Shown here in pieces: positions 1-7,869 of a DNA stretch of 64,000 nucleotides (positions within the stretch are counted from its first letter, which is position 1; every line of letters starts with the position of its first letter). The notes below the pieces were generated by a model. That model saw only the letters and a program-made list of their open reading frames with translations, ran no database searches and was not told the origin of the DNA. The translations under genes and the position numbers were made by a program. This stretch comes from Blastocatellia bacterium (GTDB taxonomy: Bacteria; Acidobacteriota; Blastocatellia; Pyrinomonadales; Pyrinomonadaceae): positions 127,154-191,153 of the forward strand of contig CAWIDZ010000004.1 of assembly GCA_963834975.1 (NCBI GenBank), written 5' to 3'.

Positions 1-1478
1 ATCCGTTTTGACCTTATTAGGACGAGAAGCGCAATAAGCCGGTTGTCGGCATCATACTTAAGGCCGAATCCGTTCGACTCGGCAGGAACATTGAGTTCGG
101 TCAGTTTATCGGTTATGTCATAGACGTAAGCAGTATGAGTTACTGAGTCGAGTTTCAGAGCAGTTCGATTACCAGCAGCGTCATAAACGTTCTCCATCAC
201 GTGGCCGAAAACATCCGTCTCAGTAGCTCTTCGGCCGCGATTATCATAGGTAAACGCGACAGTGCCATTTTGGTTTACAGCGGAGGTCAACCGCGAGAGA
301 TCGTCGTAACCGTATGTGGCGTATTGGGTCGAGCCCGTGTACATTATCCCGGTAAGGCGATTTAGGACATCATAGGCGTAGGTTGTTCCCGCACCGTTAT
401 GATCCGCGCGAGATGTTCTATTGCCGACCGCGTCATACCCGAAACTCATTGTCGTCCCAGCCCTCGTTTCCGATAGTTCTCGTCCCAGGGGATCATAGGT
501 AAACGTGTATTCGTGGCTCAATGCGTCTTTGACCTTGGTTAACTGCAAACGGGCGTTATAGGTGAGATAGGTCGGTTGCATCAGATCATCTGTTACGGTT
601 ATAAGCCGCTGAGCGTTGGGTATATCGTAGGAGTAAGCGTAGCTTGTCATGTGACCGGCAGTGTCTGCATGAGTAGCAACTTCACCAAGTTGGTCGTAGG
701 TAAAGTTTTCTTCCAATCGCGTCCCACCGATAGTCGGCAAAGGATACTTGATCTTCTTTACCCGATTGAAATCGTCGTATTCGACATCTGTGACATTCCC
801 CAGAGCGTCTATCTGAGACGTCAGATTCGACATCAGATCATAGCCATATGTCGTCGCGTGGCTCAGTGCGTCCGTTACGCCAGTGAGCCTGTAATTATTA
901 TCGTATGCATACGCCGTTGAATGGCCGAGTTCATCAGTGACGGATGTCCTGCGGCCCGCGAGATCATAACCAATAGATACAAAGTTCGTATCCGGGAATG
1001 TAATTTTGTTGATACGGTTATTAAGATCGTACTGAAGCGACGTTGCCTGGCTCAAGGCATTTGTAACGCTCGTCACCCGCGCTCGAGAGTCATAACCGAA
1101 GTTAGTGTGTTTACTGTTCGCATCGCTAATTTGCGTTAATCTGCCCGATGTATCGTAGGTCAGCGAAGTGGTGTGGTTGAGTGCGTCGGTGATCGATGAA
1201 GTTTGGCCCGCAGATGTATAGGTAAATGTTGTCGTATGACCGAGCGGATCGGTAGAGGTAAGCAGATTGCCGGTTGAGCTGTAAGTATTCGTCGTGATCC
1301 CGCCCATTCTGTCAGTGCTCGTCAGAACCTCGCCGAAGGAATTATGTGTAAATGTCTGTGTACCCAGAATATCCTGCATTGAGGTTATGTTTCGGTCGCT
1401 ATCATAACTATACAGAGTGTCGTGCAGAAGCGCGTCTCTTTTTCTAACAAGGTTTAGCCGCGCTGCTGCCGAGATCAT
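1..1478 (-). CDS. RHS/YD-repeat family protein, partial (C-terminal part lies beyond the left edge)
   Basis: One minus-strand frame stays consistent in my spot translations: 1380-1439 gives RDALLHDTLYSYDSDRNITS, 601-659 gives TSYAYSYDIPNAQRLI, and 1-59 gives KYDADNRLI. These are repeated Y-x-YD-x-x-(G/N)RL motifs. The ORF is absent from the track because it has no stop inside the window. The first in-frame ATG is at 1478. Confidence 0.8.
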   Translation of the reverse strand, partial: MISAAARLNLVRKRDALLHDTLYSYDSDRNITSMQDILGTQTFTHNSFGEVLTSTDRMGGITTNTYSSTGNLLTSTDPLGHTTTFTYTSAGQTSSITDALNHTTSLTYDTSGRLTQISDANSKHTNFGYDSRARVTSVTNALSQATSLQYDLNNRINKITFPDTNFVSIGYDLAGRRTSVTDELGHSTAYAYDNNYRLTGVTDALSHATTYGYDLMSNLTSQIDALGNVTDVEYDDFNRVKKIKYPLPTIGGTRLEENFTYDQLGEVATHADTAGHMTSYAYSYDIPNAQRLITVTDDLMQPTYLTYNARLQLTKVKDALSHEYTFTYDPLGRELSETRAGTTMSFGYDAVGNRTSRADHNGAGTTYAYDVLNRLTGIMYTGSTQYATYGYDDLSRLTSAVNQNGTVAFTYDNRGRRATETDVFGHVMENVYDAAGNRTALKLDSVTHTAYVYDITDKLTELNVPAESNGFGLKYDADNRLIALLVLIRSKR

Positions 1479-1722
1479 AGAAATACTGCGTGACCTCTGA
1501 ACCGCCGCCGCCGCAGCCACACACGCCCTCCATTTTTGTCACCAGGTTAGTTCCATATTTTCGCGTGTAATAGTATTTCGTTTCCCGTCCCAGAGCATCA
1601 GTTACTGTAAAGATATGGGGTCTGACATGCAAAATTGCGATTCTTGAACACTTCCCCGACCTCCTAAGCAATTTTACACCACGGTGCAAGTTGAGGTTAT
1701 TGACAGGCTGCCGTTTGTTCAT
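1444..1722 (-). CDS. YD-repeat N-terminal ORF, probably the frameshifted 5' end of the same rhs-family gene
   Basis: The 92-aa ORF contains VTDALGRETKYYYTRKYGTNLVTKMEG and ends ...TQYFYD, a YD motif. The YD repeat then continues in another frame (SAAARLNLVRKRDALLHD). There is a GGAG about 4 nt upstream of the ATG at 1722. Confidence 0.5.
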   Translation of the reverse strand: MNKRQPVNNLNLHRGVKLLRRSGKCSRIAILHVRPHIFTVTDALGRETKYYYTRKYGTNLVTKMEGVCGCGGGGSEVTQYFYDLGSSAAKPC

Positions 1723-1960
1723 GATCTCCGGCGACGGGGAACATTTATCGGAGTTCTCTCCGGATGTTCTTGACCGACGACTGCAGGGATTTTCAACACA
1801 ATATCTTCAGGGACTGAGCAGGACTGTTAGCTGCCCCTCCTTAGAAAAGCGGTGTAAGTTAAGTGCTTGTTAAGCTTATGCGTTTCCGGATATGAACTTT
1901 GACTGCTGATTAAATCTCTAAACAACCGGTAGAACGATTAAAATGGCAGAACTTGGAAAA

Positions 1961-2112
1961 TATTGCGAGTATATGTTAAATACTGCGAGTATTTGACATA
2001 TATTGACAGTATTCAATAAATACTGTCAGTATTTTGAATATTTTGCGAGTATTTTATAAATACTGTCAATATTTTTAAAATACTGACAGTATATTTCATA
2101 TTCTGGCATTTT
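1961..2112. repeat. Eight tandem 20-bp-phased repeats, each carrying a palindromic core ATACTG-N-CAGTAT (iteron- or operator-like array)
   Basis: Cores start at exactly 1961, 1981, 2001, 2021, 2041, 2061, 2081 and 2101. They read tattgcgagtat, tactgcgagtat, tattgacagtat, tactgtcagtat, ttttgcgagtat, tactgtcaatat, tactgacagtat and, degenerate, ttctggcatttt. The best unit is AAATACTG-T-CAGTATTT at 2018-2034. Spacers are AT-rich. Confidence 0.9.
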
Positions 2113-2509
2113 CGTCTTGAAAATACCCGTTTAGAGAACCCAGCGGCTGGCAATCGCAAACAGCGGCGGCGGGATCAATAGGCAAGAAGAAATTGAGAAT
2201 TGAGATGGATCGTAAGAAAAGAGCAAACTCTGCCGCATGCGGGTAGGAGCTATTGGGCCGCGTTCGGGCCGCCCCCTTACGGGAGGCGGTACTGACTTTG
2301 CTCTCTGCGATCTCCGCGTTAAAAAATTCTTCTATTCGTGGTGTTCGTGAGATCGGCCGGAGCTTGATGGTTTAGATCGCGGGGTTATGGTTATTGTGTC
2401 CCCTGCACCCGTAACAATAAACGATAAATTGACGCGGAAGAGCAACGTCCGGTTTATATCAATGTCGACGGAAACCTTTGATGTCATGTTTTTTTGCGTC
2501 CGGCCTCGA

Positions 2510-2538
2510 TTCACGCTAAATTAGCGTTTAGGTAGTAT
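2510..2538 (+). promoter_or_regulatory. Candidate sigma70-like promoter with an overlapping palindromic operator upstream of the 2643 operon
   Basis: TTCACG (2510-2515), a 17-nt spacer, then TAGTAT (2533-2538). The palindrome ACGCTAA-A-TTAGCGT (2513-2527) lies in the spacer. This is a pattern match only. Confidence 0.25.
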
Positions 2539-2642
2539 AGATCCTGAATAAGCAGTGCCCCCGCTTTCCCGCAGTTGCGGAGCGGCGTTAAACTGACGCT
2601 AAGCGCCGGCAGCTTTAGGATCGCGGCGTGAGGTTTTTGTAA

Positions 2643-3254
2643 ATGGCGAGACCATTGGTCCTTTCGCTCGACGGTGAAGAATTTTCCGTTGGGCTTGTCA
2701 AAATTGACCGAACTCAATTGTATGGCGATGTTACCGTCGAGGCCTTCGACGAACACGGCCACCCCGCGACGATCAAGGTGCTCGCCTCTGACGGTAATAC
2801 CCTCATCGACAAAGGCGGAACCGCGCTTGAGATGGTCGACAAAAACGGCAACTCGATCAACCGTGACAAGATACGCACCGTGGACCTGGAAGGCAACGAA
2901 CTCGAGACGGTCCCATCTTCATTTAGCCGCGTCAATAACTTAAAGCTCGCCTCCGTCGACGATTATCTTTCGCTGATCGTAAAGTCGGTGTATTGGCTTC
3001 AGGGTTATGAAAACTCCTCGCTCGCGGTTCTGTTTGATAATCTTAAGGAAGGCCATATTTATTCGTTCCCATTCAGCTTTCGCGACGGTATCGAATCGGA
3101 CGAGGCCTTTCTGATAGGCAGCAGCAAAGTTGCCTTTATGGTCATCGGCAATCAGGCGACGCTTGAATTTTTGACGTTCAAACAGGCAGCGGCACTCGAC
3201 ACGACCGAGGAAGACGAGATCTCGGCCGACGATCTGGATTTTGACCTGTTATAG
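2643..3254 (+). CDS. Hypothetical protein (203 aa), first gene of the ligase/PrimPol operon; has an acidic C-terminal tail
   Basis: Long ORF with a GAGG 8 nt upstream of the ATG. I recognise no family motif. It ends EEDEISADDLDFDLL. The next gene starts 12 nt downstream. Confidence 0.75.
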   Translation: MARPLVLSLDGEEFSVGLVKIDRTQLYGDVTVEAFDEHGHPATIKVLASDGNTLIDKGGTALEMVDKNGNSINRDKIRTVDLEGNELETVPSSFSRVNNLKLASVDDYLSLIVKSVYWLQGYENSSLAVLFDNLKEGHIYSFPFSFRDGIESDEAFLIGSSKVAFMVIGNQATLEFLTFKQAAALDTTEEDEISADDLDFDLL

Positions 3255-3266
3255 GAGATCTGACTA

Positions 3267-3974
3267 ATGGCGATAAATATCAGCAATCAGAAAAACCGCG
3301 ATGCGGTCGTCGCCCTCGAGGGGCTTTTTCCTCGTCGTGAGGTGCGATATGTCGACGAGAAAGGCGACCCCGTCCGCACACAAAAGGTCCTCAAATCGGA
3401 CGTCAAACATGACCTGCCCGAACTTCTCAAAAAACGGAAGAACCTCGAAAAAGTGGCAAAAGACCTGATCGCCGGCGACCCTGAGGTAGATCTCGAATCG
3501 TTTGGCACATTCCTCGCCGAAACATCGCGTGTTTACGTTTCAAAAGAGGGCATCGTCCATCTTGTCGAAGAATTTGAGGTCGTTATTGCCCCGGACGGGA
3601 CCGAACGCGAACGCCGGCCGCGGCGTAAGTTGGTGCAAAATCTGAACTCGGACATACCCCTCAGATGGACCGGGAAATTTATTAAGAAGGAAGAAGCAAT
3701 AGCGAAATTTGTCTTTAACAACAAACGCCAGTTGGCGCATGTTAACGGCCTGACGTTTGATTTTTTGTACGAAATGGCCGAGGAGCTCGACAAGAAAAAT
3801 TCGCTTCTGCTGATACGCGGCGGCGAAAAAGGTAATGAACCGATCGTGATGAACCGCGGCGGTAAACCGTATAACGCCTTTCTCGAGGGCCGCATCAAGG
3901 GCGACTCTTACTGCCTGATCCTGCATCTCTCGAACCTCGAACTAAAACGGCCAAAGGAGGTCGAAGATGTTTGA
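3267..3974 (+). CDS. Hypothetical protein (235 aa), second gene of the ligase/PrimPol operon
   Basis: Long ORF with a GGAG upstream. It overlaps the ligase start by 8 nt (ATGTTTGA). It is basic and charged (RERRPRRK) and I recognise no family motif. Confidence 0.75.
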   Translation: MAINISNQKNRDAVVALEGLFPRREVRYVDEKGDPVRTQKVLKSDVKHDLPELLKKRKNLEKVAKDLIAGDPEVDLESFGTFLAETSRVYVSKEGIVHLVEEFEVVIAPDGTERERRPRRKLVQNLNSDIPLRWTGKFIKKEEAIAKFVFNNKRQLAHVNGLTFDFLYEMAEELDKKNSLLLIRGGEKGNEPIVMNRGGKPYNAFLEGRIKGDSYCLILHLSNLELKRPKEVEDV

Positions 3975-5427
3975 CCTCGGCATAACCAAATCAAAATTTA
4001 CATGCAAATTTGGCGACTACTGCTTCGGCAAATCCGCCAACATCGCCGACCCGTCGCTGCAGCTGCGGGCCCAGGACTATCGACGCAAGATGAGCTCGAT
4101 GACCAGAGCCTTTTCAGGAGGCGATATCTATAAGCTGCCGAGGGCAAAAGACTATTACGTCTCGCGAAAATACGACGGCGAATTTGCGATGCTTTTCTAT
4201 GACGGTAAGACGATCTTGTCGATAAACGCCGGTGGTACCGTTCGCGTCGGCCTGCCCGCGTTTGCTGAAGCGGAAAAGCTTTTGAAAAAGGCCAAGGTCA
4301 AATCATGTGTGCTTGGCGCTGAGATCTATCTGCAGGACGTGAAATTTAAGACTCAGGCGATACACCAGGTCGTCGGGATCCTGCGTTCACCCAAAGCCAA
4401 GGCGGACCTCAGCCGCCTCGGCCTCGCGGTCTTTGATGTTATGGAATTTGACGGCAAACAGCCGTCATCGACGCAGGATGTTTTCGCATTACTGAAAAAA
4501 TGGTTCGGCAGCGGCAAATTAGCACACGCCGCCGAGGTCGTCGTTGCGGACGATCTGGACAAGATCACCGATATCTTTAACGAGTGGGTGGTGACTGAAG
4601 GCAGCGAGGGCCTGGTCGTGAGGAATGACCGTGCCGGATGGTTCAAGGTAAAATCCCGTCACAACCTCGATGTAGCTGTCATCGGGTTTTCAGAGGGGAT
4701 AGACGACCGCAAAGGCATGCTCCACGATCTGCTCGTCGCCGTTATGCGTGACGACGGCACCTATCACGAACTTGGCCGCGTCGGCGGCGGATTTACCGAC
4801 GAGAACCGCAAAGAGCTGGTTCGCGACCTGAGAAAGCGCACCGCTCCGTCAGATTATGTCGCCGTCAATAACGACTATGTCGCGTACGAAATGATCAAGC
4901 CCGGCCCCGTCATCGAGATCTCATGCCTTGACCTTATTCCCGAAAGATCAAGGGGCGGCCCGGTCAACCGAATGGTGCTCGAATGGGACGGCAAGCGTTA
5001 TCTCGCACTCGAGCGGATGCCGATCGTCAGCATGATCTCGCCGCAGTTCGTCCGCATTCGCGATGATAAGGAAGCTGTGGTCGCCGACGTGAATATCAGT
5101 CAGATCAACGATCTCGTCGAGGTGCCAAAGATCACAAAGACCGCTCGCGATGAAAAGAAGCCCGAGAGCCAACTTCTCGAGCGCGCCGTTTACACCAAGG
5201 TCATGAAAGGCAACACTATGGTCCGCAAACTGCTGTTATGGAAAACGAACAAGGAAAAGGACGAACAGTTCCCGGCCTATGTCGTTTATCTCACGGATTT
5301 CAGCCCGAACCGGGAAAACGCGCTTGAGCGTGATATCAAGATCGCCCATACCGTTTCAATGGCGCGAAGGCATTTCGATGATATGTCAAAGGCCAAGTTT
5401 ATCGGCGGTTGGGTAAAGGCGGAGTAA
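3967..5427 (+). CDS. ATP-dependent DNA ligase family protein with a roughly 110-aa C-terminal extension
   Basis: Nucleotidyltransferase motifs are present: I SRKYDGEF (Lys68), III VLGAEIYL, IIIa LAVFDVMEF, IV EGLVVR, V WFKVKSRHNLDVAVIG. An OB-domain end FVRIRDDK (motif VI-like) sits at aa 361-368. Residues 375-486 form an extra domain. Confidence 0.9.
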   Translation: MFDLGITKSKFTCKFGDYCFGKSANIADPSLQLRAQDYRRKMSSMTRAFSGGDIYKLPRAKDYYVSRKYDGEFAMLFYDGKTILSINAGGTVRVGLPAFAEAEKLLKKAKVKSCVLGAEIYLQDVKFKTQAIHQVVGILRSPKAKADLSRLGLAVFDVMEFDGKQPSSTQDVFALLKKWFGSGKLAHAAEVVVADDLDKITDIFNEWVVTEGSEGLVVRNDRAGWFKVKSRHNLDVAVIGFSEGIDDRKGMLHDLLVAVMRDDGTYHELGRVGGGFTDENRKELVRDLRKRTAPSDYVAVNNDYVAYEMIKPGPVIEISCLDLIPERSRGGPVNRMVLEWDGKRYLALERMPIVSMISPQFVRIRDDKEAVVADVNISQINDLVEVPKITKTARDEKKPESQLLERAVYTKVMKGNTMVRKLLLWKTNKEKDEQFPAYVVYLTDFSPNRENALERDIKIAHTVSMARRHFDDMSKAKFIGGWVKAE

Positions 5428-5430
5428 GGA

Positions 5431-6711
5431 ATGGTATTTCAGCGGTTTAGAGAATTTGCCGGGAACAAACGACTTCTTTGGATCGCCGAAGAGTGGCACC
5501 GCTATGCCGAAGAGCTTGCCGAATGGGCCATGAAGCGTCTCGTTAACCGACGCGACGTCTGGAGCCAATACACCTTGCGAAACGGTGTCATCGGCGTGGT
5601 CATGCTGCCGATAAAAGAGCTCCGCAAAAAAGGCAATCACATGGTCACGATCAAAAAGCTGGCCCGCCATTTTGCCGGCGAAAAACCCAGCGACCTGATC
5701 GGGCTTCATTCGATCAGCGATCATTCGACATGCAAATGGTTTGCTATCGACGTTGACCTGCATAACGAATCCGTCGCAAATGCTGACGAGGTGGCGGCTG
5801 CAAATTTTGCGGCCTGCCTGCACTGGGCCGACCAACTGCGTTCGCAAAAGATGGACCCGATGCTGCTCGACAGCAACGGGGTCGGCGGTTTTCATCTGTG
5901 GGTCTTGCTGGACAAGGAATATCCGCTGGCCGATACATATGATTTTGTGGACGAACTTCGCTCCAACTGGGAGGACCTCGATCTGCCGCGTCGGCCTGAG
6001 ATATTTCCGCCGAAGCGTGAGGTCGGGCCCGACGATCTGCCGTACGCTCTCAGGGTCCCGGGCCGTCATCATACCCGGCCCTTCTACACACGGCTCTGGA
6101 ATTTTGACCCGATGGGCGAGAACGAATGGCTCGAGGGCGGTGAGGCGATCGAGGCAATGATGAGAACGATCCCGACCAAACTCCCGAAAGCCAACCTTGA
6201 CGACAAACCGGAAAGACCGAAAACGGCCCAACCAAAAAAGAAAAAAGCCAAAACCTCTGTAACTAAATCAAAACCCCGCGTTTGTCTGGATCTGGACGGC
6301 GTCCTCGCTGAGTATGACGGATGGAAAGGGATCGGAAAGATCGGTCCTCCTCTGCCCGGCGCCCGCGAATTTGCCGAAAATTTGTCAAAGGTAGCGGACA
6401 TTGTGATCTTTAGCAGCAGATGCTCAAGCGAACCTGATGCCCGCGGCGATATTTCAGGATTGACCCCCGGTCAGGCGCGGATACACATCATCGAATGGCT
6501 CGAAAAAAATGAGATACCCTTCACCGATGTTTTTATGGGCGAGGGCAAACCACGAGTCGCCGCGATCATAGATGACCGGGCAGTTTCATGCCGGCCGCAG
6601 GAGAGCGAAGAGTCTTATGCTGAAACGCTCGAAGCGGTTGGCCGATTGTTAAAGCGTAAATCGGCCAAAGTTAAACGGCCAGGCCGCATCGTTAAGTCAA
6701 AAGCGACTTAG
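5431..6711 (+). CDS. Primase-polymerase (AEP/PrimPol) fused to a C-terminal HAD-superfamily phosphatase-like domain
   Basis: AEP motifs: FAIDVDLH (DxD, aa 105-111), GGFHLWVLL (aa 152-160) and EIFPPK...ALRVPGRHH (aa 190-213). A Lys-rich linker KPERPKTAQPKKKKAKTSVTKSKPR follows. The HAD motif I is CLDLDGVL (aa 285-292), with IFSSR and IIDDR further on. The gene starts 3 nt after the ligase stop. Confidence 0.85.
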   Translation: MVFQRFREFAGNKRLLWIAEEWHRYAEELAEWAMKRLVNRRDVWSQYTLRNGVIGVVMLPIKELRKKGNHMVTIKKLARHFAGEKPSDLIGLHSISDHSTCKWFAIDVDLHNESVANADEVAAANFAACLHWADQLRSQKMDPMLLDSNGVGGFHLWVLLDKEYPLADTYDFVDELRSNWEDLDLPRRPEIFPPKREVGPDDLPYALRVPGRHHTRPFYTRLWNFDPMGENEWLEGGEAIEAMMRTIPTKLPKANLDDKPERPKTAQPKKKKAKTSVTKSKPRVCLDLDGVLAEYDGWKGIGKIGPPLPGAREFAENLSKVADIVIFSSRCSSEPDARGDISGLTPGQARIHIIEWLEKNEIPFTDVFMGEGKPRVAAIIDDRAVSCRPQESEESYAETLEAVGRLLKRKSAKVKRPGRIVKSKAT

Positions 6712-6766
6712 TCCCAAACTTGCACAAGGCGCTCCGGCACCAGCGAGTCGATCCATCCCCGATTCA

Positions 6767-7252
6767 TCATCCTTTCTTCTCTTTCCTGGACGGAGCCTTG
6801 CTTTTCGCTTTCTTTGCCGGAAAGACCGTCTCGATCTTCCAATCAGGCTCTATGTACTTATCGTTGGCCTTGATCAAAAGCCAGTCTTTGTCTTTTCCAT
6901 TGAGCTTTATCAATGCGAAAGATCCGTGAATCTTTGAGCCGAAAAACGTAATCTCCAGCTTACCCGCTTTTAACTGCCGCAGCGGATCCTCATCCGTTTC
7001 AAATTCGCCTTTGTCCCAGATCCTGACCTCGCCGGCGCCATAGCTGCCCTCGGCGATCTCGCCCTCAAAATCAATATAGCTTAGTGCATGATCGGGAACT
7101 GCCACCGCGAGGCGTTTATCCGCCGGGTTCAAAGAGACGCCTTTGGGTACGGCCCACGATTTCAGGACACCGTCGATCTCAAGCCGCAGATCAAAGTGCA
7201 GATTGGTCGCGTGGTGTTCGTGGATCACAAATCGTTTTCGCATATTGTTCAA
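6767..7252 (-). CDS. Stand-alone LigD-type 3'-phosphoesterase (PE) domain protein
   Basis: RFVIHEHHATNLHFDLRLEIDGVLKSWAVPKGVSLNP...AVPDHALSYIDFEGEI..GSYGAGEVRIWDKG matches the conserved LigD PE signature (H-x-H, HFD-RLE, SWAVPKG, FEG, YGaG). Confidence 0.9.
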   Translation of the reverse strand: MNNMRKRFVIHEHHATNLHFDLRLEIDGVLKSWAVPKGVSLNPADKRLAVAVPDHALSYIDFEGEIAEGSYGAGEVRIWDKGEFETDEDPLRQLKAGKLEITFFGSKIHGSFALIKLNGKDKDWLLIKANDKYIEPDWKIETVFPAKKAKSKAPSRKEKKG

Positions 7253-7263
7253 CCCAGCTTTGC

Positions 7264-7869
7264 CTACGGCTTAGAATAACTAACTCTTACATTCAAAAGC
7301 CGGGCAGGGAATGTCGCAAAATCTTCGACCTCGACATGTGAGCCATTTGCTCCTTTATCCTCTTTCCAGCTTATTTTTGCAGCGGCTATGTAAGTGCCGT
7401 CGCCCTTGCCGGTCGCCGGATCGATGTTTAATTCGATATATCCGAACGGATAGTCGAGTGATCGATATCCGCCGCGAAGTTCGGCAAAACGGGTCCAGCG
7501 TTCAAAGACGATATAGATCCGTCGCATGCCGTCAACGTTTCTTTCCCGAACAGCGTTGATCGTTTTTGCAAGATGGCCGTCAACCGAGAATGATCCGCGG
7601 TCATCGTCCCTTATTCCGTCGAGCAGCGCGTCCTGACCTTTATCCTGCAGCAGGTCCAGAAAGTGCATAGCCCTGTCCGTCGGTGTCTCGTCCTTGATAT
7701 TGATAGTGAAAGTACTGGTAACCGCGCGGGTATTAAAACCGCTGCCGTAACTTAGGATAGTACCGGTATATGTTTCCCGGTTGGCCTGTCCTAATGTCGA
7801 AATTGCAAGAAATGTAAGGCACAAAGCCAGAGCAGTACCAGTGATCTTGAGTTTTTTCATATTGTTCAT
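7264..7869 (-). CDS. Secreted hypothetical protein (signal peptide)
   Basis: 201-aa ORF with an N-terminal hydrophobic signal, MKKLKITGTALALCLTFLAISTLGQA. It stops 11 nt upstream of the PE gene start. No family recognised. Confidence 0.6.
   Translation of the reverse strand: MNNMKKLKITGTALALCLTFLAISTLGQANRETYTGTILSYGSGFNTRAVTSTFTINIKDETPTDRAMHFLDLLQDKGQDALLDGIRDDDRGSFSVDGHLAKTINAVRERNVDGMRRIYIVFERWTRFAELRGGYRSLDYPFGYIELNIDPATGKGDGTYIAAAKISWKEDKGANGSHVEVEDFATFPARLLNVRVSYSKP

What the first reader, a model, noticed from the sequence alone, without database searches (positions are those of the whole stretch)
5431..6711. Unusual domain fusion: PrimPol-type AEP + Lys-rich linker + HAD phosphatase
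Residues about 100-215 carry the AEP catalytic motifs. Residues about 258-283 are a strongly basic linker (KPERPKTAQPKKKKAKTSVTKSKPR). Residues about 284-400 have HAD motif I DLDGVL plus IFSSR and IIDDR. HAD DxDxT phosphatases act as 3'-end-healing modules in polynucleotide kinase-phosphatases (established). Fusing one to a primase-polymerase next to a ligase would place gap-filling/priming and 3'-phosphate removal in one polypeptide. I do not recognise this combination from characterised LigD or PrimPol enzymes.
Basis: partly seen in the sequence, partly recalled or inferred. Interest (0 to 1): 0.6.

Follow-up and report, generated by a model that had tools for sequence, protein, structure and literature searches.

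The report
Polymerase-phosphatase fusion in hidden end-joining operon
This gene really does fuse a primase-type DNA polymerase to a small phosphatase, and it belongs to a conserved, unannotated gene set (two proteins predicted to fold like the DNA-end-binding protein Ku, a DNA ligase, and this fusion) found in many bacterial phyla, which most likely repairs broken DNA in bacteria that lack the known end-joining genes.

Summary
ORF 5431-6711 (426 aa) has three parts: an AEP primase-polymerase domain (Pfam AEP-TOTE; closest solved fold is the CRISPR-associated Prim-Pol), a disordered Lys/Arg-rich linker, and a cap-less HAD phosphatase with all four motifs.

The fusion is not a local oddity. Full-length relatives down to about 33% identity occur in Acidobacteriota, Planctomycetota, Verrucomicrobiota, Cyanobacteria (Cyanobium), Gamma- and Alphaproteobacteria, Rhodothermales and Myxococcota. 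All named ones are "hypothetical".

It always travels with three other genes:
- a 203-aa acidic protein (2643-3254);
- a 235-aa protein (3267-3974);
- a divergent ATP-dependent DNA ligase (3967-5427).

The four are linked in one operon, with the gene order cyclically permuted between phyla. In five Planctomycetota/Verrucomicrobiales genomes the other three sit elsewhere in the same genome. In 27 loci of other phyla an ExoIII-like nuclease follows the ligase.

A joint AlphaFold model of the two small proteins (pLDDT 85, pTM 0.79) matches almost only Ku in PDB and in the viral library, with no detectable sequence similarity. Most carriers tested lack canonical Ku.

Best reading (about 0.55): a non-orthologous, Ku-LigD-like end-joining or end-healing system. 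The fusion would supply fill-in synthesis and 3'-phosphate removal. The HAD substrate is not shown.

The scan reached the same reading earlier on other genomes. I found no published description.

The parts
2643..3254 (+). A203: 203-aa acidic protein (pI 4.3) and first gene of the operon. It is a predicted Ku-like beta-barrel subunit. Its conserved acidic C-terminal tail ends in D-x-(L/F)-D-F-x-M-L.
   Evidence: It is conserved next to the other three genes in 6 of 6 same-genus loci and in about 55 loci of other phyla. The tail is conserved in all 24 aligned orthologues. In the joint model with B235 the top PDB and viral hits are Ku. The order of its predicted strands and helices is collinear with the motif positions of canonical acidobacterial Ku. 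No Pfam, NCBIfam, PHROG or PADLOC match.
3267..3974 (+). B235: 235-aa basic protein (pI 8.8) and the best conserved member of the set (about 50% identity across phyla). It is the predicted partner of A203. In Granulosicoccaceae it is extended by a SAM domain, and in one locus by a Lys-rich histone-H1-like tail.
   Evidence: Alignment A6. 2220 clusters, all hypothetical. The joint model has pLDDT 85.2 and pTM 0.79. Its stop overlaps the ligase start by 8 nt, ATGTTTGA. SAM and HC2-like extensions. It was present in 5 of 5 genomes whose AEP-HAD gene stands alone.
3967..5427 (+). Lig486: divergent ATP-dependent DNA ligase. It has a nucleotidyltransferase domain with K68-Y-D-G, an OB domain, and an unassigned basic C-terminal stretch of 112 aa.
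   Evidence: Pfam DNA_ligase_A_M scores 1.9e-11 and DNA_ligase_A_C scores 1.2e-9. All NCBIfam ligase models, including LigD, fall far below their cut-offs. The best PDB sequence matches are archaeal and Lig1-type ligases at only 3.5e-7. The C-terminal 112 aa have no family.
5431..6201 (+). AEP primase-polymerase domain of the fusion (residues 1-257). Key residues are D107, D109, H155, E190, R208, H213 and H214.
   Evidence: Pfam AEP-TOTE is above its cut-off. Foldseek finds CAPP Prim-Pol 7nqf at E 7e-7 and TMt 0.70. LigD Pol is weaker, at E 6.5e-4 and TMt 0.41. Residues are invariant across phyla. The nearest non-fusion relatives, at 35-44% identity, carry PriCT-1/2, DUF3987 or a DnaG zinc ribbon.
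6202..6279 (+). Disordered Lys/Arg/Pro-rich linker (residues 258-283).
   Evidence: pLDDT is below 50 at 258-278. It has 11 K+R of 26 residues. Composition, not sequence, is conserved.
6280..6666 (+). Cap-less (C0) HAD phosphatase domain (residues 284-412). Motif I is D287/D289, motif II is S328-S329-R330, motif III is K373, and motif IV is D381/D382.
   Evidence: Motifs are invariant. Foldseek hits: 1xpj at TMt 0.60, then GmhB, HisB-N, AfhF and T4 Pnkp. phmmer gives 1xpj at E 0.016 with all motifs aligned. PHROG 1238 scores 1.2e-9 and phrog_415 scores 2e-4. The model has no helical cap insert between strand 1 and helix 311-319.
6667..6711 (+). Short basic C-terminal tail (residues 413-426, 6 K+R of 14) and the stop codon.
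   Evidence: pLDDT is below 50 at 412-426. The tail varies among homologues.
6767..7252 (-). Neighbour, not a conserved part of the set: a stand-alone LigD-type 3'-phosphoesterase (PE) gene, convergent with the operon.
   Evidence: Pfam LigD_N scores 7e-41 and TIGR02777 scores 180 bits against a cut-off of 144. It lies next to the cassette only here and in 1 of 6 same-genus loci, on the other side. It is in none of the 80 loci from other phyla.

Best explanation
The gene encodes the polymerase and end-cleaning subunit of a four-component DNA end-joining or end-healing system. The system works like bacterial Ku-LigD non-homologous end joining but is built from different families.

Proposed mechanism:
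1. A203 and B235 form a Ku-like end-binding module.
2. The HAD domain of the fusion removes 3'-phosphates that block extension and ligation.
3. The AEP domain fills gaps or extends and aligns the ends.
4. The dedicated ATP-dependent ligase seals the nick.
5. In many other phyla an ExoIII-like nuclease adds 3' trimming.
6. The basic disordered linker tethers the two catalytic domains to DNA, or to the acidic tail of A203.

Shown here: the domain identities and intact active-site motifs, the tight operon, and the co-occurrence of the four genes across phyla even when they are unlinked. Also shown: the predicted Ku-like fold of the partner pair, and the usual absence of canonical Ku in carriers.

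Inferred only: every biochemical activity, the HAD substrate, the ring or heterodimer, and who binds whom.
For: Domains and motifs:
-.

Operon:
- The gaps are 12 nt, an 8-nt overlap and 3 nt, each gene with a Shine-Dalgarno-like sequence.

Conservation of the four genes:
- All four are present in 6 of 6 same-genus loci while the flanks differ.
- In Granulosicoccaceae, Thiotrichales, Cyanobium, Hellea, Neomegalonema, Rhodobacterales and Rhodothermales the order is AEP-HAD, A, B, Lig. In Pirellulales the order is A, B, Lig, then AEP-HAD about 2 kb downstream.
- In 5 of 5 Planctomycetota/Verrucomicrobiales genomes with a solitary AEP-HAD gene, B235 and the ligase lie together on another contig. 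A203 was detected beside them in 4 of the 5.
- Within the genus, presence and absence of AEP-HAD and B235 agree in 22 of 24 genomes. The 2 exceptions are fragmented assemblies.

Ku-like fold:
- The joint model has pLDDT 85.2 and pTM 0.79.
- Of the PDB top 50, 48 are Ku70/80 or bacterial Ku: Ku80 at E 8e-4 and probability 1.0, B. subtilis and M. tuberculosis Ku at TMt 0.40-0.41.
- In the viral library the only two significant hits are phage Ku homologues.

Canonical Ku (PF02735):
- None in this genome.
- Absent in 16 of 17 same-genus carriers and in 8 of 10 carriers from other phyla.
- For comparison, 23 of 61 sampled Acidobacteriota have it.

Fifth gene:
- An ExoIII-like nuclease (PF03372, 7e-18) follows the ligase in 27 loci.

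Not mobile-element borne:
- No B235 match in 72,556 plasmid or 50,697 phage records. No PADLOC hit.

Established knowledge:
- LigD combines an AEP polymerase, a 3'-phosphoesterase and a ligase, and works with Ku.
- Eukaryotic end joining uses PNKP, whose 3'-phosphatase is a HAD domain.
- Cap-less HADs often act on macromolecular substrates (Burroughs et al. 2006, from memory).
Against: - No activity has been measured.
- The Ku likeness rests on one AlphaFold model of an artificial read-through fusion of two genes, and on modest scores (E about 1e-3, TM 0.4 to bacterial Ku).
- There is no sequence-level support. hhalign against canonical Ku gives P 0.07 and 0.11. Profile searches against PDB sequences find nothing.
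- I could not see model coordinates. So I could not tell which half, or whether both, matches Ku, nor whether a ring forms.
- The nearest solved relatives of the HAD domain are 1xpj (function unknown) and sugar-bisphosphate phosphatases. T4 Pnkp ranks lower, at E 1e-2.
- The nearest AEP relatives are replicative primases of mobile elements.
- Two carriers also have canonical Ku. The system is therefore not simply a replacement.
- Related genomes are not independent, so the Ku counts are only suggestive.
Confidence: 0.55

Rival explanations
1. This is a single-strand-break or excision-repair module, not double-strand-break joining. It would resemble mycobacterial LigC/Prim-PolC. An AP endonuclease or glycosylase-lyase leaves a nick or short gap with a 3'-phosphate or other 3' block. 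The HAD (and the ExoIII-like nuclease where present) cleans it, the AEP fills the short gap and the ligase seals it. A203/B235 would be a scaffold or nick/gap sensor, not an end-threading ring.
For: - An ExoIII-like nuclease follows the ligase in 27 loci.
- In this window the neighbours include a LigD phosphoesterase and an SRAP abasic-site protein.
- The ligase is a minimal core ligase, like LigC.
- Precedent: LigC with Prim-PolC acts in base excision repair (PMC5663958 and PMC7442782, abstracts as listed).
Against: - The partner pair is predicted to be Ku-like, and Ku is an end-binding protein.
- The SRAP and PE neighbours are not conserved with the cassette.
- The AEP is not of the Prim-PolC/LigD clade. 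6sa1 and 5op0 match only at E about 1e-2.
Confidence: 0.2
2. The system is as in the best explanation, but the HAD domain is a small-molecule phosphatase. It would act on a nucleotide or a sugar phosphate, for example to shape the local nucleotide supply of the polymerase. It would not act on DNA 3' ends.
For: - The best fold matches are 1xpj (unknown function), GmhB, HisB-N and the phage arabinose-bisphosphate phosphatase AfhF.
- The best sequence matches are TIGR01689 'capsule biosynthesis phosphatase' at 0.005 and PHROG 1238.
- A weak NT5C nucleotidase hit scores 0.043.
Against: - All these matches are below family thresholds.
- Polynucleotide-kinase and RNA-repair HAD families score comparably: phrog_415 at 2e-4, and HAD_SAK_2 at 0.003 in a divergent orthologue.
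- The domain has no cap to enclose a small substrate.
- The fusion to a DNA polymerase is fixed across several phyla, inside a ligase/Ku-like/nuclease gene set.
Confidence: 0.13
3. This is a conflict (anti-phage or anti-plasmid) or mobile-element replication module. The AEP would prime or copy foreign or element DNA, as in TOTE systems, CRISPR-associated Prim-Pols or plasmid replicases. The other genes would be effectors or helpers.
For: - The only Pfam family above threshold is AEP-TOTE, named for a conflict system. TOTE stands for TPR, OB, TBP, Effector (PMC12458937).
- The nearest AEP relatives are fused to PriCT or DUF3987 helicase modules typical of mobile elements.
- The closest solved fold is a CRISPR-associated Prim-Pol.
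- The cassette is patchy within the genus and family, and its flanks differ.
Against: - Pfam found no TPR, OB/CSD or TBP partner in this operon.
- There is no helicase, integrase or replication-origin gene in the conserved set.
- No PADLOC match.
- No homologue of B235 in the plasmid or phage collections, and none of the HAD domain among phages.
- Where present, the cassette is held by all sampled members of some genera, 4 of 4 in two genera.
Confidence: 0.07
4. This is an RNA repair system. The HAD would heal RNA 3' ends and the ligase would seal RNA, by analogy with Pnkp/Hen1 or the 'Swiss Army Knife' RNA repair proteins.
For: Weak HAD_SAK_2 hits (0.13 here, 0.003 in orthologue P0258) and the PHROG polynucleotide kinase hit.
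Against: - The ligase is of the DNA-ligase type, with the NTase and OB domains of DNA_ligase_A. It is not an Rnl or RtcB ligase.
- The set has no kinase or methyltransferase domain.
- The predicted Ku-like partner and the ExoIII-like nuclease point to DNA.
Confidence: 0.05

Closest known systems
Bacterial Ku-LigD non-homologous end joining (M. tuberculosis, P. aeruginosa, B. subtilis)
   Same: It has the same set of functions: an end-binding protein with a Ku fold (predicted here), an AEP-superfamily polymerase, a 3'-end-cleaning phosphoesterase activity and an ATP-dependent ligase. These are encoded together.
   Different: - There is no sequence similarity to Ku.
- The end-binding module is two different small proteins instead of a homodimer.
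- The polymerase comes from the PrimPol/AEP-TOTE clade, not the LigD-Pol clade.
- 3'-end cleaning is assigned to a HAD domain instead of the LigD PE domain.
- The polymerase is fused to the phosphatase rather than to the ligase.
- The ligase is below all LigD model cut-offs.
Eukaryotic NHEJ end processing: Ku70/80 heterodimer plus PNKP (HAD-type 3'-phosphatase), Pol mu/lambda and Lig4
   Same: It has a heteromeric Ku-like module, with Ku80 the best fold match. A HAD-fold phosphatase is the candidate 3'-phosphate remover. The polymerase and the ligase are separate proteins.
   Different: - There is no kinase domain, no XRCC4/XLF and no family-X polymerase.
- The HAD domain resembles PNKP-type phosphatases only weakly (T4 Pnkp at E 1e-2).
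- This is an analogy, not shown homology of the system.
CRISPR-associated Prim-Pol (CAPP, PDB 7nqd/7nqf/7p9j) and the Pfam AEP-TOTE family
   Same: CAPP is the closest solved fold of the AEP domain: TMt 0.70, E 7e-7, and a weak sequence match with DxD, GxH and EIFP aligned. The Pfam AEP-TOTE model is above its threshold.
   Different: There is no CRISPR context and no TPR, OB or TBP partner. The C-terminal partner domain is a HAD phosphatase. The conserved neighbours are a ligase and a Ku-like pair.
Mycobacterial LigC / Prim-PolC excision-repair complex (PMC5663958, PMC7442782)
   Same: A stand-alone core ATP-dependent ligase is encoded next to an AEP repair polymerase that fills short gaps. 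It is associated with 3'-end-cleaning nucleases.
   Different: The AEP belongs to a different clade. The fusion to a HAD phosphatase and the two Ku-like partner proteins are absent from the LigC system.
T4 polynucleotide kinase-phosphatase (Pnkp) phosphatase domain; 1xpj / TIGR01689 small HADs
   Same: It is a small cap-less DxDxT HAD, with an Arg after motif II and a DD motif IV. There is a fold match and a sequence match to 1xpj.
   Different: There is no kinase domain. Scores are below family cut-offs. The substrate of 1xpj is unknown, and the better-scoring solved relatives act on sugar bisphosphates.

Membership tests
AEP (archaeo-eukaryotic primase) superfamily, PrimPol-type | Motif I DxD/DxE (metal ligands) | tested here: met
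   D107-V-D109 is invariant in 118 close homologues and in 35 of 35 cross-phylum fusions.
AEP (archaeo-eukaryotic primase) superfamily, PrimPol-type | Motif II sxH (nucleotide binding) | tested here: met
   S148-N-G-V-G-G-F-H155. H155 is invariant.
AEP (archaeo-eukaryotic primase) superfamily, PrimPol-type | Motif III, the third acidic metal ligand | tested here: inconclusive
   The candidate is E190 in the conserved P-E-(I/T/L)-(F/Y)-P. It aligns with V-E-I-F-P of CAPP and is E in 32 of 35 sequences. D161 is conserved only among close homologues. Without model coordinates I could not check the geometry.
AEP (archaeo-eukaryotic primase) superfamily, PrimPol-type | AEP fold and a family model above threshold | tested here: met
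   PF22548 scores 31.1 bits against a cut-off of 27. Foldseek finds CAPP Prim-Pol at E 7e-7 and TMt 0.70.
AEP (archaeo-eukaryotic primase) superfamily, PrimPol-type | Primase and/or polymerase activity | not testable with these tools
   This needs recombinant protein assays.
TOTE conflict system (TPR, OB, TBP, Effector) | Adjacent TPR-cold-shock/OB protein and TATA-binding-protein-fold protein | tested here: not met
   The definition comes from PMC12458937. Pfam, NCBIfam and PADLOC find no TPR, CSD/OB or TBP domain in the operon. The conserved partners across phyla are A203, B235, a ligase and an ExoIII-like nuclease. The AEP domain is in the Pfam family, but the locus is not a TOTE system.
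HAD superfamily phosphatase | Four motifs: I DxDx(T/V), II S/T, III K/R, IV DD or DxxxD | tested here: met
   D287-L-D289-G-V, S328-S329 (followed by R330), K373 and D381-D382. They are invariant or nearly so.
HAD superfamily phosphatase | Rossmannoid HAD fold | tested here: met
   Block-mean pLDDT is about 84-94 over most of the domain, lower (51-78) around residues 331-350 and 371-380. Foldseek probability is 1.0 to 1xpj (TMt 0.60), GmhB, HisB-N, AfhF and T4 Pnkp.
HAD superfamily phosphatase | A curated HAD family model above its threshold | tested here: not met
   Only sub-threshold hits: NIF 0.038, NT5C 0.043, HAD_SAK_2 0.13 and TIGR01689 0.005 (16.8 bits against 162). It is therefore an unclassified HAD subfamily.
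Polynucleotide 3'-phosphatase (Pnkp/PNKP-type HAD) | Specific similarity to the Pnkp phosphatase domain, and activity on 3'-phosphorylated DNA or RNA | tested here: inconclusive
   phrog_415 'polynucleotide kinase' scores 2e-4. T4 Pnkp 2ia5 scores E 1e-2 with 21-22% identity over about 104 columns, ranked below sugar-phosphate phosphatases. Activity is not testable here.
Bacterial NHEJ (Ku + LigD) | A Ku protein recognisable by sequence (PF02735) | tested here: not met
   A203 and B235 give no Ku hit. There is none in the 85%-complete genome. hhalign against acidobacterial Ku gives P 0.07 and 0.11.
Bacterial NHEJ (Ku + LigD) | Ku fold in an operon partner | tested here: met
   This holds for a predicted structure only. 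In the joint A203-B235 model, 48 of the 50 best PDB hits are Ku, and the only two significant viral hits are phage Ku. Which subunit matches was not resolved.
Bacterial NHEJ (Ku + LigD) | LigD-clade polymerase domain and LigD PE domain joined to the ligase | tested here: not met
   The ligase carries neither domain. The AEP matches LigD Pol only weakly, at E 6.5e-4 and TMt 0.41. The PE domain is a separate, convergent, non-conserved neighbour. The locus works like NHEJ on paper but is not a member of the Ku-LigD family.
ATP-dependent DNA ligase | Nucleotidyltransferase motif I KxDG plus an OB domain | tested here: met
   K68-Y-D-G. Both PF01068 and PF04679 are above their cut-offs.

The most novel reading that the evidence does not exclude
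This is a second, non-orthologous bacterial end-joining machine. A heterodimeric Ku-like ring (A203 and B235) would recruit a dedicated ligase and the PrimPol-HAD fusion through short charged peptides: the acidic D-F-x-M-L tail of A203, and the basic linker of the fusion, which carries an RKRxFKRxGK-like motif in Proteobacteria and Cyanobacteria. It would give DNA double-strand-break joining to lineages currently scored as lacking NHEJ. Examples are the Cyanobium-type picocyanobacteria, Granulosicoccaceae, Rhodothermales and Verrucomicrobiales genomes tested here, and most of this Pyrinomonadaceae genus.
Probability: 0.4. Interest if true: 0.85.

Novelty: new variant of a known kind. Interest (0 to 1): 0.68.

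Why it matters
Surveys of bacterial end joining count Ku and LigD by sequence, and conclude that most bacteria lack the pathway. This gene set would be invisible to such surveys. Yet it supplies every function of Ku-LigD from other protein families.

It occurs in soil Acidobacteriota, freshwater picocyanobacteria, marine surface-associated Proteobacteria, Planctomycetota and Verrucomicrobiota.

If it joins breaks, three things follow:
- The map of which bacteria can repair double-strand breaks without a template changes.
- It becomes a case of convergent assembly of the same repair logic that eukaryotes use: heteromeric Ku plus a HAD 3'-phosphatase.
- It offers compact new enzymes, a PrimPol-phosphatase fusion and a minimal ligase with its own clamp.

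Even if the Ku reading fails, the fusion and its fixed partners define a widespread, unannotated DNA-repair module that can be tested directly.

Tried and rejected
1. TOTE conflict system. I considered it because of the Pfam name and rejected membership. No TPR, OB or TBP partners are present.

2. Known defence system. PADLOC gives nothing for the partners and only sub-threshold AEP hits for the fusion.

3. Mobile-element cargo. tblastn of B235 finds nothing in the plasmid or phage collections. tblastn of the HAD domain finds nothing in phages.

4. Sequence-level link of A203/B235 to Ku.
- hhalign against 10 acidobacterial Ku sequences is not significant.
- Profile searches of PDB sequences give only noise, such as S100/calbindin and a head-closure protein.
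- hhalign of A203 against B235 shows no detectable paralogy.

5. The search for related loci with the 9-sequence alignment A4 failed because it had no conserved stretch. It worked with the 3-sequence alignment A5.

6. The first block alignment for the joint fold (A8) was misaligned by MAFFT. I rebuilt it with eight natural same-frame read-through rows as anchors (A9).

7. The promoter and terminator scan of 1700-7400 gave counts no higher than shuffles.

8. Literature. Seven full-text searches found no description of an AEP-HAD fusion or of this operon. The Antarctic Dry Valley ligase survey does not mention it. AgaPP (PMC11724360) belongs to a different AEP family (BT4734-like, Lys in motif II), so it is only a loose precedent.

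10. Model coordinates are not exposed to scripts. I therefore made no interface, ring or per-domain analysis.
Full report
**1. The observation**

The ORF at 5431-6711 on the plus strand is open and encodes 426 residues.

AEP domain. The N-terminal half matches the Pfam family AEP-TOTE above its curated cut-off: 31.1 against 27 bits, residues 60-178. They are invariant in an alignment of 118 homologues and in all 35 fusion proteins aligned from several phyla.

Linker. Residues 258-283 are strongly basic, with 11 Lys/Arg of 26 and pI 10.8. They are predicted to be disordered, with pLDDT below 50 at 258-278. The sequence is not conserved but the composition is: median 41% Lys/Arg in 118 homologues. 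Across phyla the linker is 21-61 residues and net basic, except in one Planctomycetia clade where it is 13 residues.

HAD domain. The C-terminal 130 residues carry all four HAD motifs: D287-x-D289, S328-S329-R330, K373 and D381-D382. These are invariant in the close homologues and in 34 of 35 cross-phylum sequences.

- No curated HAD model reaches its threshold.
- The AlphaFold model built on 118 sequences (mean pLDDT 79.7) has a Rossmannoid HAD fold. Foldseek aligns it with probability 1.0 to 1xpj, GmhB, HisB-N, phage AfhF and the T4 Pnkp phosphatase.
- The model shows no helical cap insert. This is a minimal, cap-less HAD.

**2. The fusion is widespread and unannotated**

One search returned 720 clusters of full-length relatives. 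All were "hypothetical", and the named ones came from Pyrinomonadaceae and other Acidobacteriota.

An exhaustive phmmer search of 1.84 billion representatives found 2095 relatives.

- Most share only the AEP domain, at 35-44% identity over residues 18-250. They carry PriCT-1, PriCT-2, DUF3987 or a DnaG-type zinc ribbon instead of HAD. That is the architecture of mobile-element primase-helicases.
- True AEP-HAD fusions extend down to 33% identity.

A scan of one genome per species found the fusion in many groups:

- Planctomycetota and Verrucomicrobiales;
- a Sandaracinaceae myxobacterium and Rhodothermales;
- Granulosicoccaceae, Thiotrichales and other Gammaproteobacteria;
- Cyanobium and other Cyanobacteriota;
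- Hellea/Caulobacterales, Neomegalonema/Rhodobacterales and one Alcaligenaceae assembly.

By fold, the AEP domain is closest to the CRISPR-associated Prim-Pol (7nqf, TMt 0.70, E 7e-7). It matches LigD polymerase only weakly.

**3. It is one part of a fixed gene set**

In the window four genes are tightly packed:

- A203 at 2643-3254;
- B235 at 3267-3974;
- a ligase at 3967-5427;
- the fusion.

The spacings are a 12-nt gap, an 8-nt overlap and a 3-nt gap.

Conservation within the genus. The same four genes in the same order occur in 6 of 6 loci fetched from the same genus, while the flanking genes differ.

Conservation across phyla.

- In about 50 loci of Proteobacteria, Cyanobacteria and Rhodothermales the same four genes occur in the cyclically permuted order: fusion, A203, B235, ligase.
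- In a Pirellulales locus the order is as here, but two unrelated genes lie before the fusion.

Unlinked cases. In Verrucomicrobiales and most Planctomycetota the fusion gene stands alone, with no conserved neighbour. In all five such genomes tested, B235 and the ligase lie together on another contig. A203 was detected beside them in four of the five.

Presence and absence.

- Within the genus, the fusion and B235 agree in 22 of 24 genomes. The two exceptions are fragmented assemblies where the gene sits at a contig end.
- Within the family the set was found in 12 of 150 genomes and 5 of 60 genera. In two of those genera it was in all four sampled genomes.

A fifth gene, an ExoIII-like endonuclease/exonuclease/phosphatase (PF03372), directly follows the ligase in 27 loci of Granulosicoccaceae, Cyanobium, Hellea and Rhodobacterales. 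It is absent from this window and was not found in this genome.

The stand-alone LigD phosphoesterase gene at 6767-7252 is next to the cassette only here and in one related locus. It is not a conserved member.

**4. What the partners are**

The ligase is a genuine ATP-dependent DNA ligase, with K68-Y-D-G and both the NTase and OB domains. It falls far below every curated subfamily cut-off, LigD included. It also has an unassigned basic C-terminal stretch of 112 residues.

A203 and B235 match no family in Pfam, NCBIfam, PHROGs or PADLOC.

Only one structure job remained and the two genes lie in the same frame. I therefore translated 2643-3971 with the two intervening stop codons read as residues. 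This is an artificial fusion made only for folding. I folded it with a block alignment holding 8 natural same-frame read-through rows, 33 A203 orthologues and 38 B235 orthologues.

- The model is confident: mean pLDDT 85.2 and pTM 0.79. Only the acidic tail of A203 and the junction are disordered.
- Against PDB, 48 of the 50 best matches are Ku. Ku80 scores E 8e-4 and probability 1.0. M. tuberculosis and B. subtilis Ku score TMt 0.40-0.41.
- Against the viral library, the only two significant matches are phage Ku homologues.
- There is no sequence-level support.
- The tools do not report query coordinates or expose the model. I cannot say from the search which half matches.

Indirect evidence points at A203 at least. 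The order and positions of its predicted strands and helices are collinear with the conserved motifs of canonical acidobacterial Ku sequences. The non-significant hhalign alignment runs collinearly along the full length. The C-terminal half of B235 has a compatible beta-alpha-beta-alpha-beta-beta-beta order, so a Ku70/80-like heterodimer is possible but not shown.

Other features fit a DNA-end-binding module with recruitment peptides:

- A203 is acidic (pI 4.3) and ends in a universally conserved acidic tail, D-x-(L/F)-D-F-x-M-L.
- B235 is basic (pI 8.8).
- In Granulosicoccaceae, B235 is extended by a SAM domain. In one locus it has a Lys-rich histone-H1-like tail. From memory, this recalls the basic C-terminal extensions of many bacterial Ku proteins.

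Canonical Ku is missing from this genome, which is 85% complete. It is also missing from 16 of 17 same-genus carriers and from 8 of 10 carriers in other phyla. For comparison, 23 of 61 sampled Acidobacteriota have it. Related genomes are not independent, so this is only suggestive.

**5. Most likely mechanism**

The set contains, from non-orthologous families, every function of Ku-LigD end joining:

- an end binder, the predicted Ku-like A203/B235;
- a template-dependent polymerase, the AEP domain;
- a remover of 3' blocks, the HAD domain, with an ExoIII-like nuclease in many phyla;
- a ligase.

I therefore read the fusion as the polymerase and end-cleaning subunit of an end-joining or end-healing system.

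- The HAD domain would remove 3'-phosphates.
- The AEP domain would fill in or align the ends.
- The basic linker would tether the protein to DNA or to the acidic tail of A203.

Shown: the domains, the motifs, the operon, the co-occurrence and the predicted folds. Inferred: all activities, the HAD substrate and all contacts. My confidence is about 0.55.

The main rival (0.2) is a nick or short-gap excision-repair role like LigC/Prim-PolC. A sub-rival (0.13) keeps the system but makes the HAD a small-molecule phosphatase, because its best solved relatives act on sugar bisphosphates.

A conflict or mobile-element role (0.07) is disfavoured by four results:

- no TOTE partners are present;
- there are no PADLOC hits;
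- there are no plasmid or phage homologues;
- the set is stably held within genera.

RNA repair (0.05) is disfavoured by the DNA-type ligase.

**6. Comparison with what is known, and novelty**

The system works like Ku-LigD but fails its membership tests. It has no Ku sequence family, no LigD-clade polymerase and no PE domain on the ligase.

The AEP domain is a member of Pfam AEP-TOTE, but the locus is not a TOTE system.

The HAD domain is a HAD-superfamily member of no curated family.

Seven full-text literature searches found no description of the fusion or the operon.

After I had my own Ku result, I found that this scan had already reached the same reading on other genomes:

- e1-3934267;
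- e1-3831686;
- e1-4116266, which also mentioned the ExoIII-like nuclease that I then confirmed;
- e1-4192949.

These are AI notes, not independent evidence.

I class the finding as a new variant of a known kind: end joining assembled from different parts.

**7. Limits**

- The genome is an 85%-complete assembly.
- All homologues come from metagenome-assembled genomes.
- The Ku inference rests on a predicted structure of an artificial two-gene fusion.

Noticed in passing
L026:12957-13688 (and 26 other loci, e.g. L086:12323-13084, L084:16169-16879): A fifth conserved gene, an ExoIII-like endonuclease/exonuclease/phosphatase (PF03372), directly follows the ligase. It occurs in Granulosicoccaceae, Cyanobium, Hellea and Rhodobacterales versions of the cassette. 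It is absent from this window and was not found in this genome.
   Followed up: yes
L045:9991-11547, L026:10016-11389; L074:3852-4997: In Granulosicoccaceae the B235 orthologue is extended by about 200 residues that include a SAM (sterile alpha motif) domain. In L074 it instead carries a Lys-rich histone-H1-like tail. Both look like added interaction or DNA-binding modules on the putative end binder.
   Followed up: partly
window 3195-3251 (A203 residues about 185-203): A203 ends in a disordered acidic tail whose tip, D-x-(L/F)-D-F-x-M-L, is conserved in all 24 orthologues aligned across phyla. It resembles the recruitment tails of SSB-type proteins. It could be the docking peptide for the ligase or for the basic linker of the fusion.
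   Followed up: partly
L035, L046, L026, L068, L061, L051, L040, L086 (linker of the AEP-HAD orthologues): In Proteobacteria and Cyanobacteria the basic linker ends in a recurring short motif of the type R-K-R-(R/K)-F-(K/x)-R-x-G-(K/R). The window's own linker lacks the Phe-containing form. It may be a short linear binding motif.
   Followed up: no
window 2643-6711 compared with L023-L096: The gene order is cyclically permuted between phyla. It is A203-B235-ligase-fusion in Pyrinomonadaceae and Pirellulales, and fusion-A203-B235-ligase(-nuclease) elsewhere. In some Hellea loci unrelated genes (DUF1800/DUF1501, SnoaL-like) are inserted between the fusion and A203.
   Followed up: partly
window 5089-5427 (ligase residues 375-486): The ligase has a basic C-terminal extension of 112 residues (pI 9.5) after the OB domain. 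It has no family match in Pfam. An earlier first-reader note (e1-4015705) flagged it too.
   Followed up: partly
window 6767-7869 (-): A stand-alone LigD-type 3'-phosphoesterase gene starts 11 nt after a 201-aa gene. Neither is conserved with the cassette.
   Followed up: partly
window 3-1520 (-): An RHS-repeat protein fragment runs off the window start (Pfam RHS_repeat, 1e-57). It lies upstream of and divergent from the operon.
   Followed up: no
P0011 (homologue from a 249-kb metagenome contig): One close homologue loses register through the start of the HAD domain (motif I region) and regains it later. This looks like a frameshift or an assembly error in that record.
   Followed up: no
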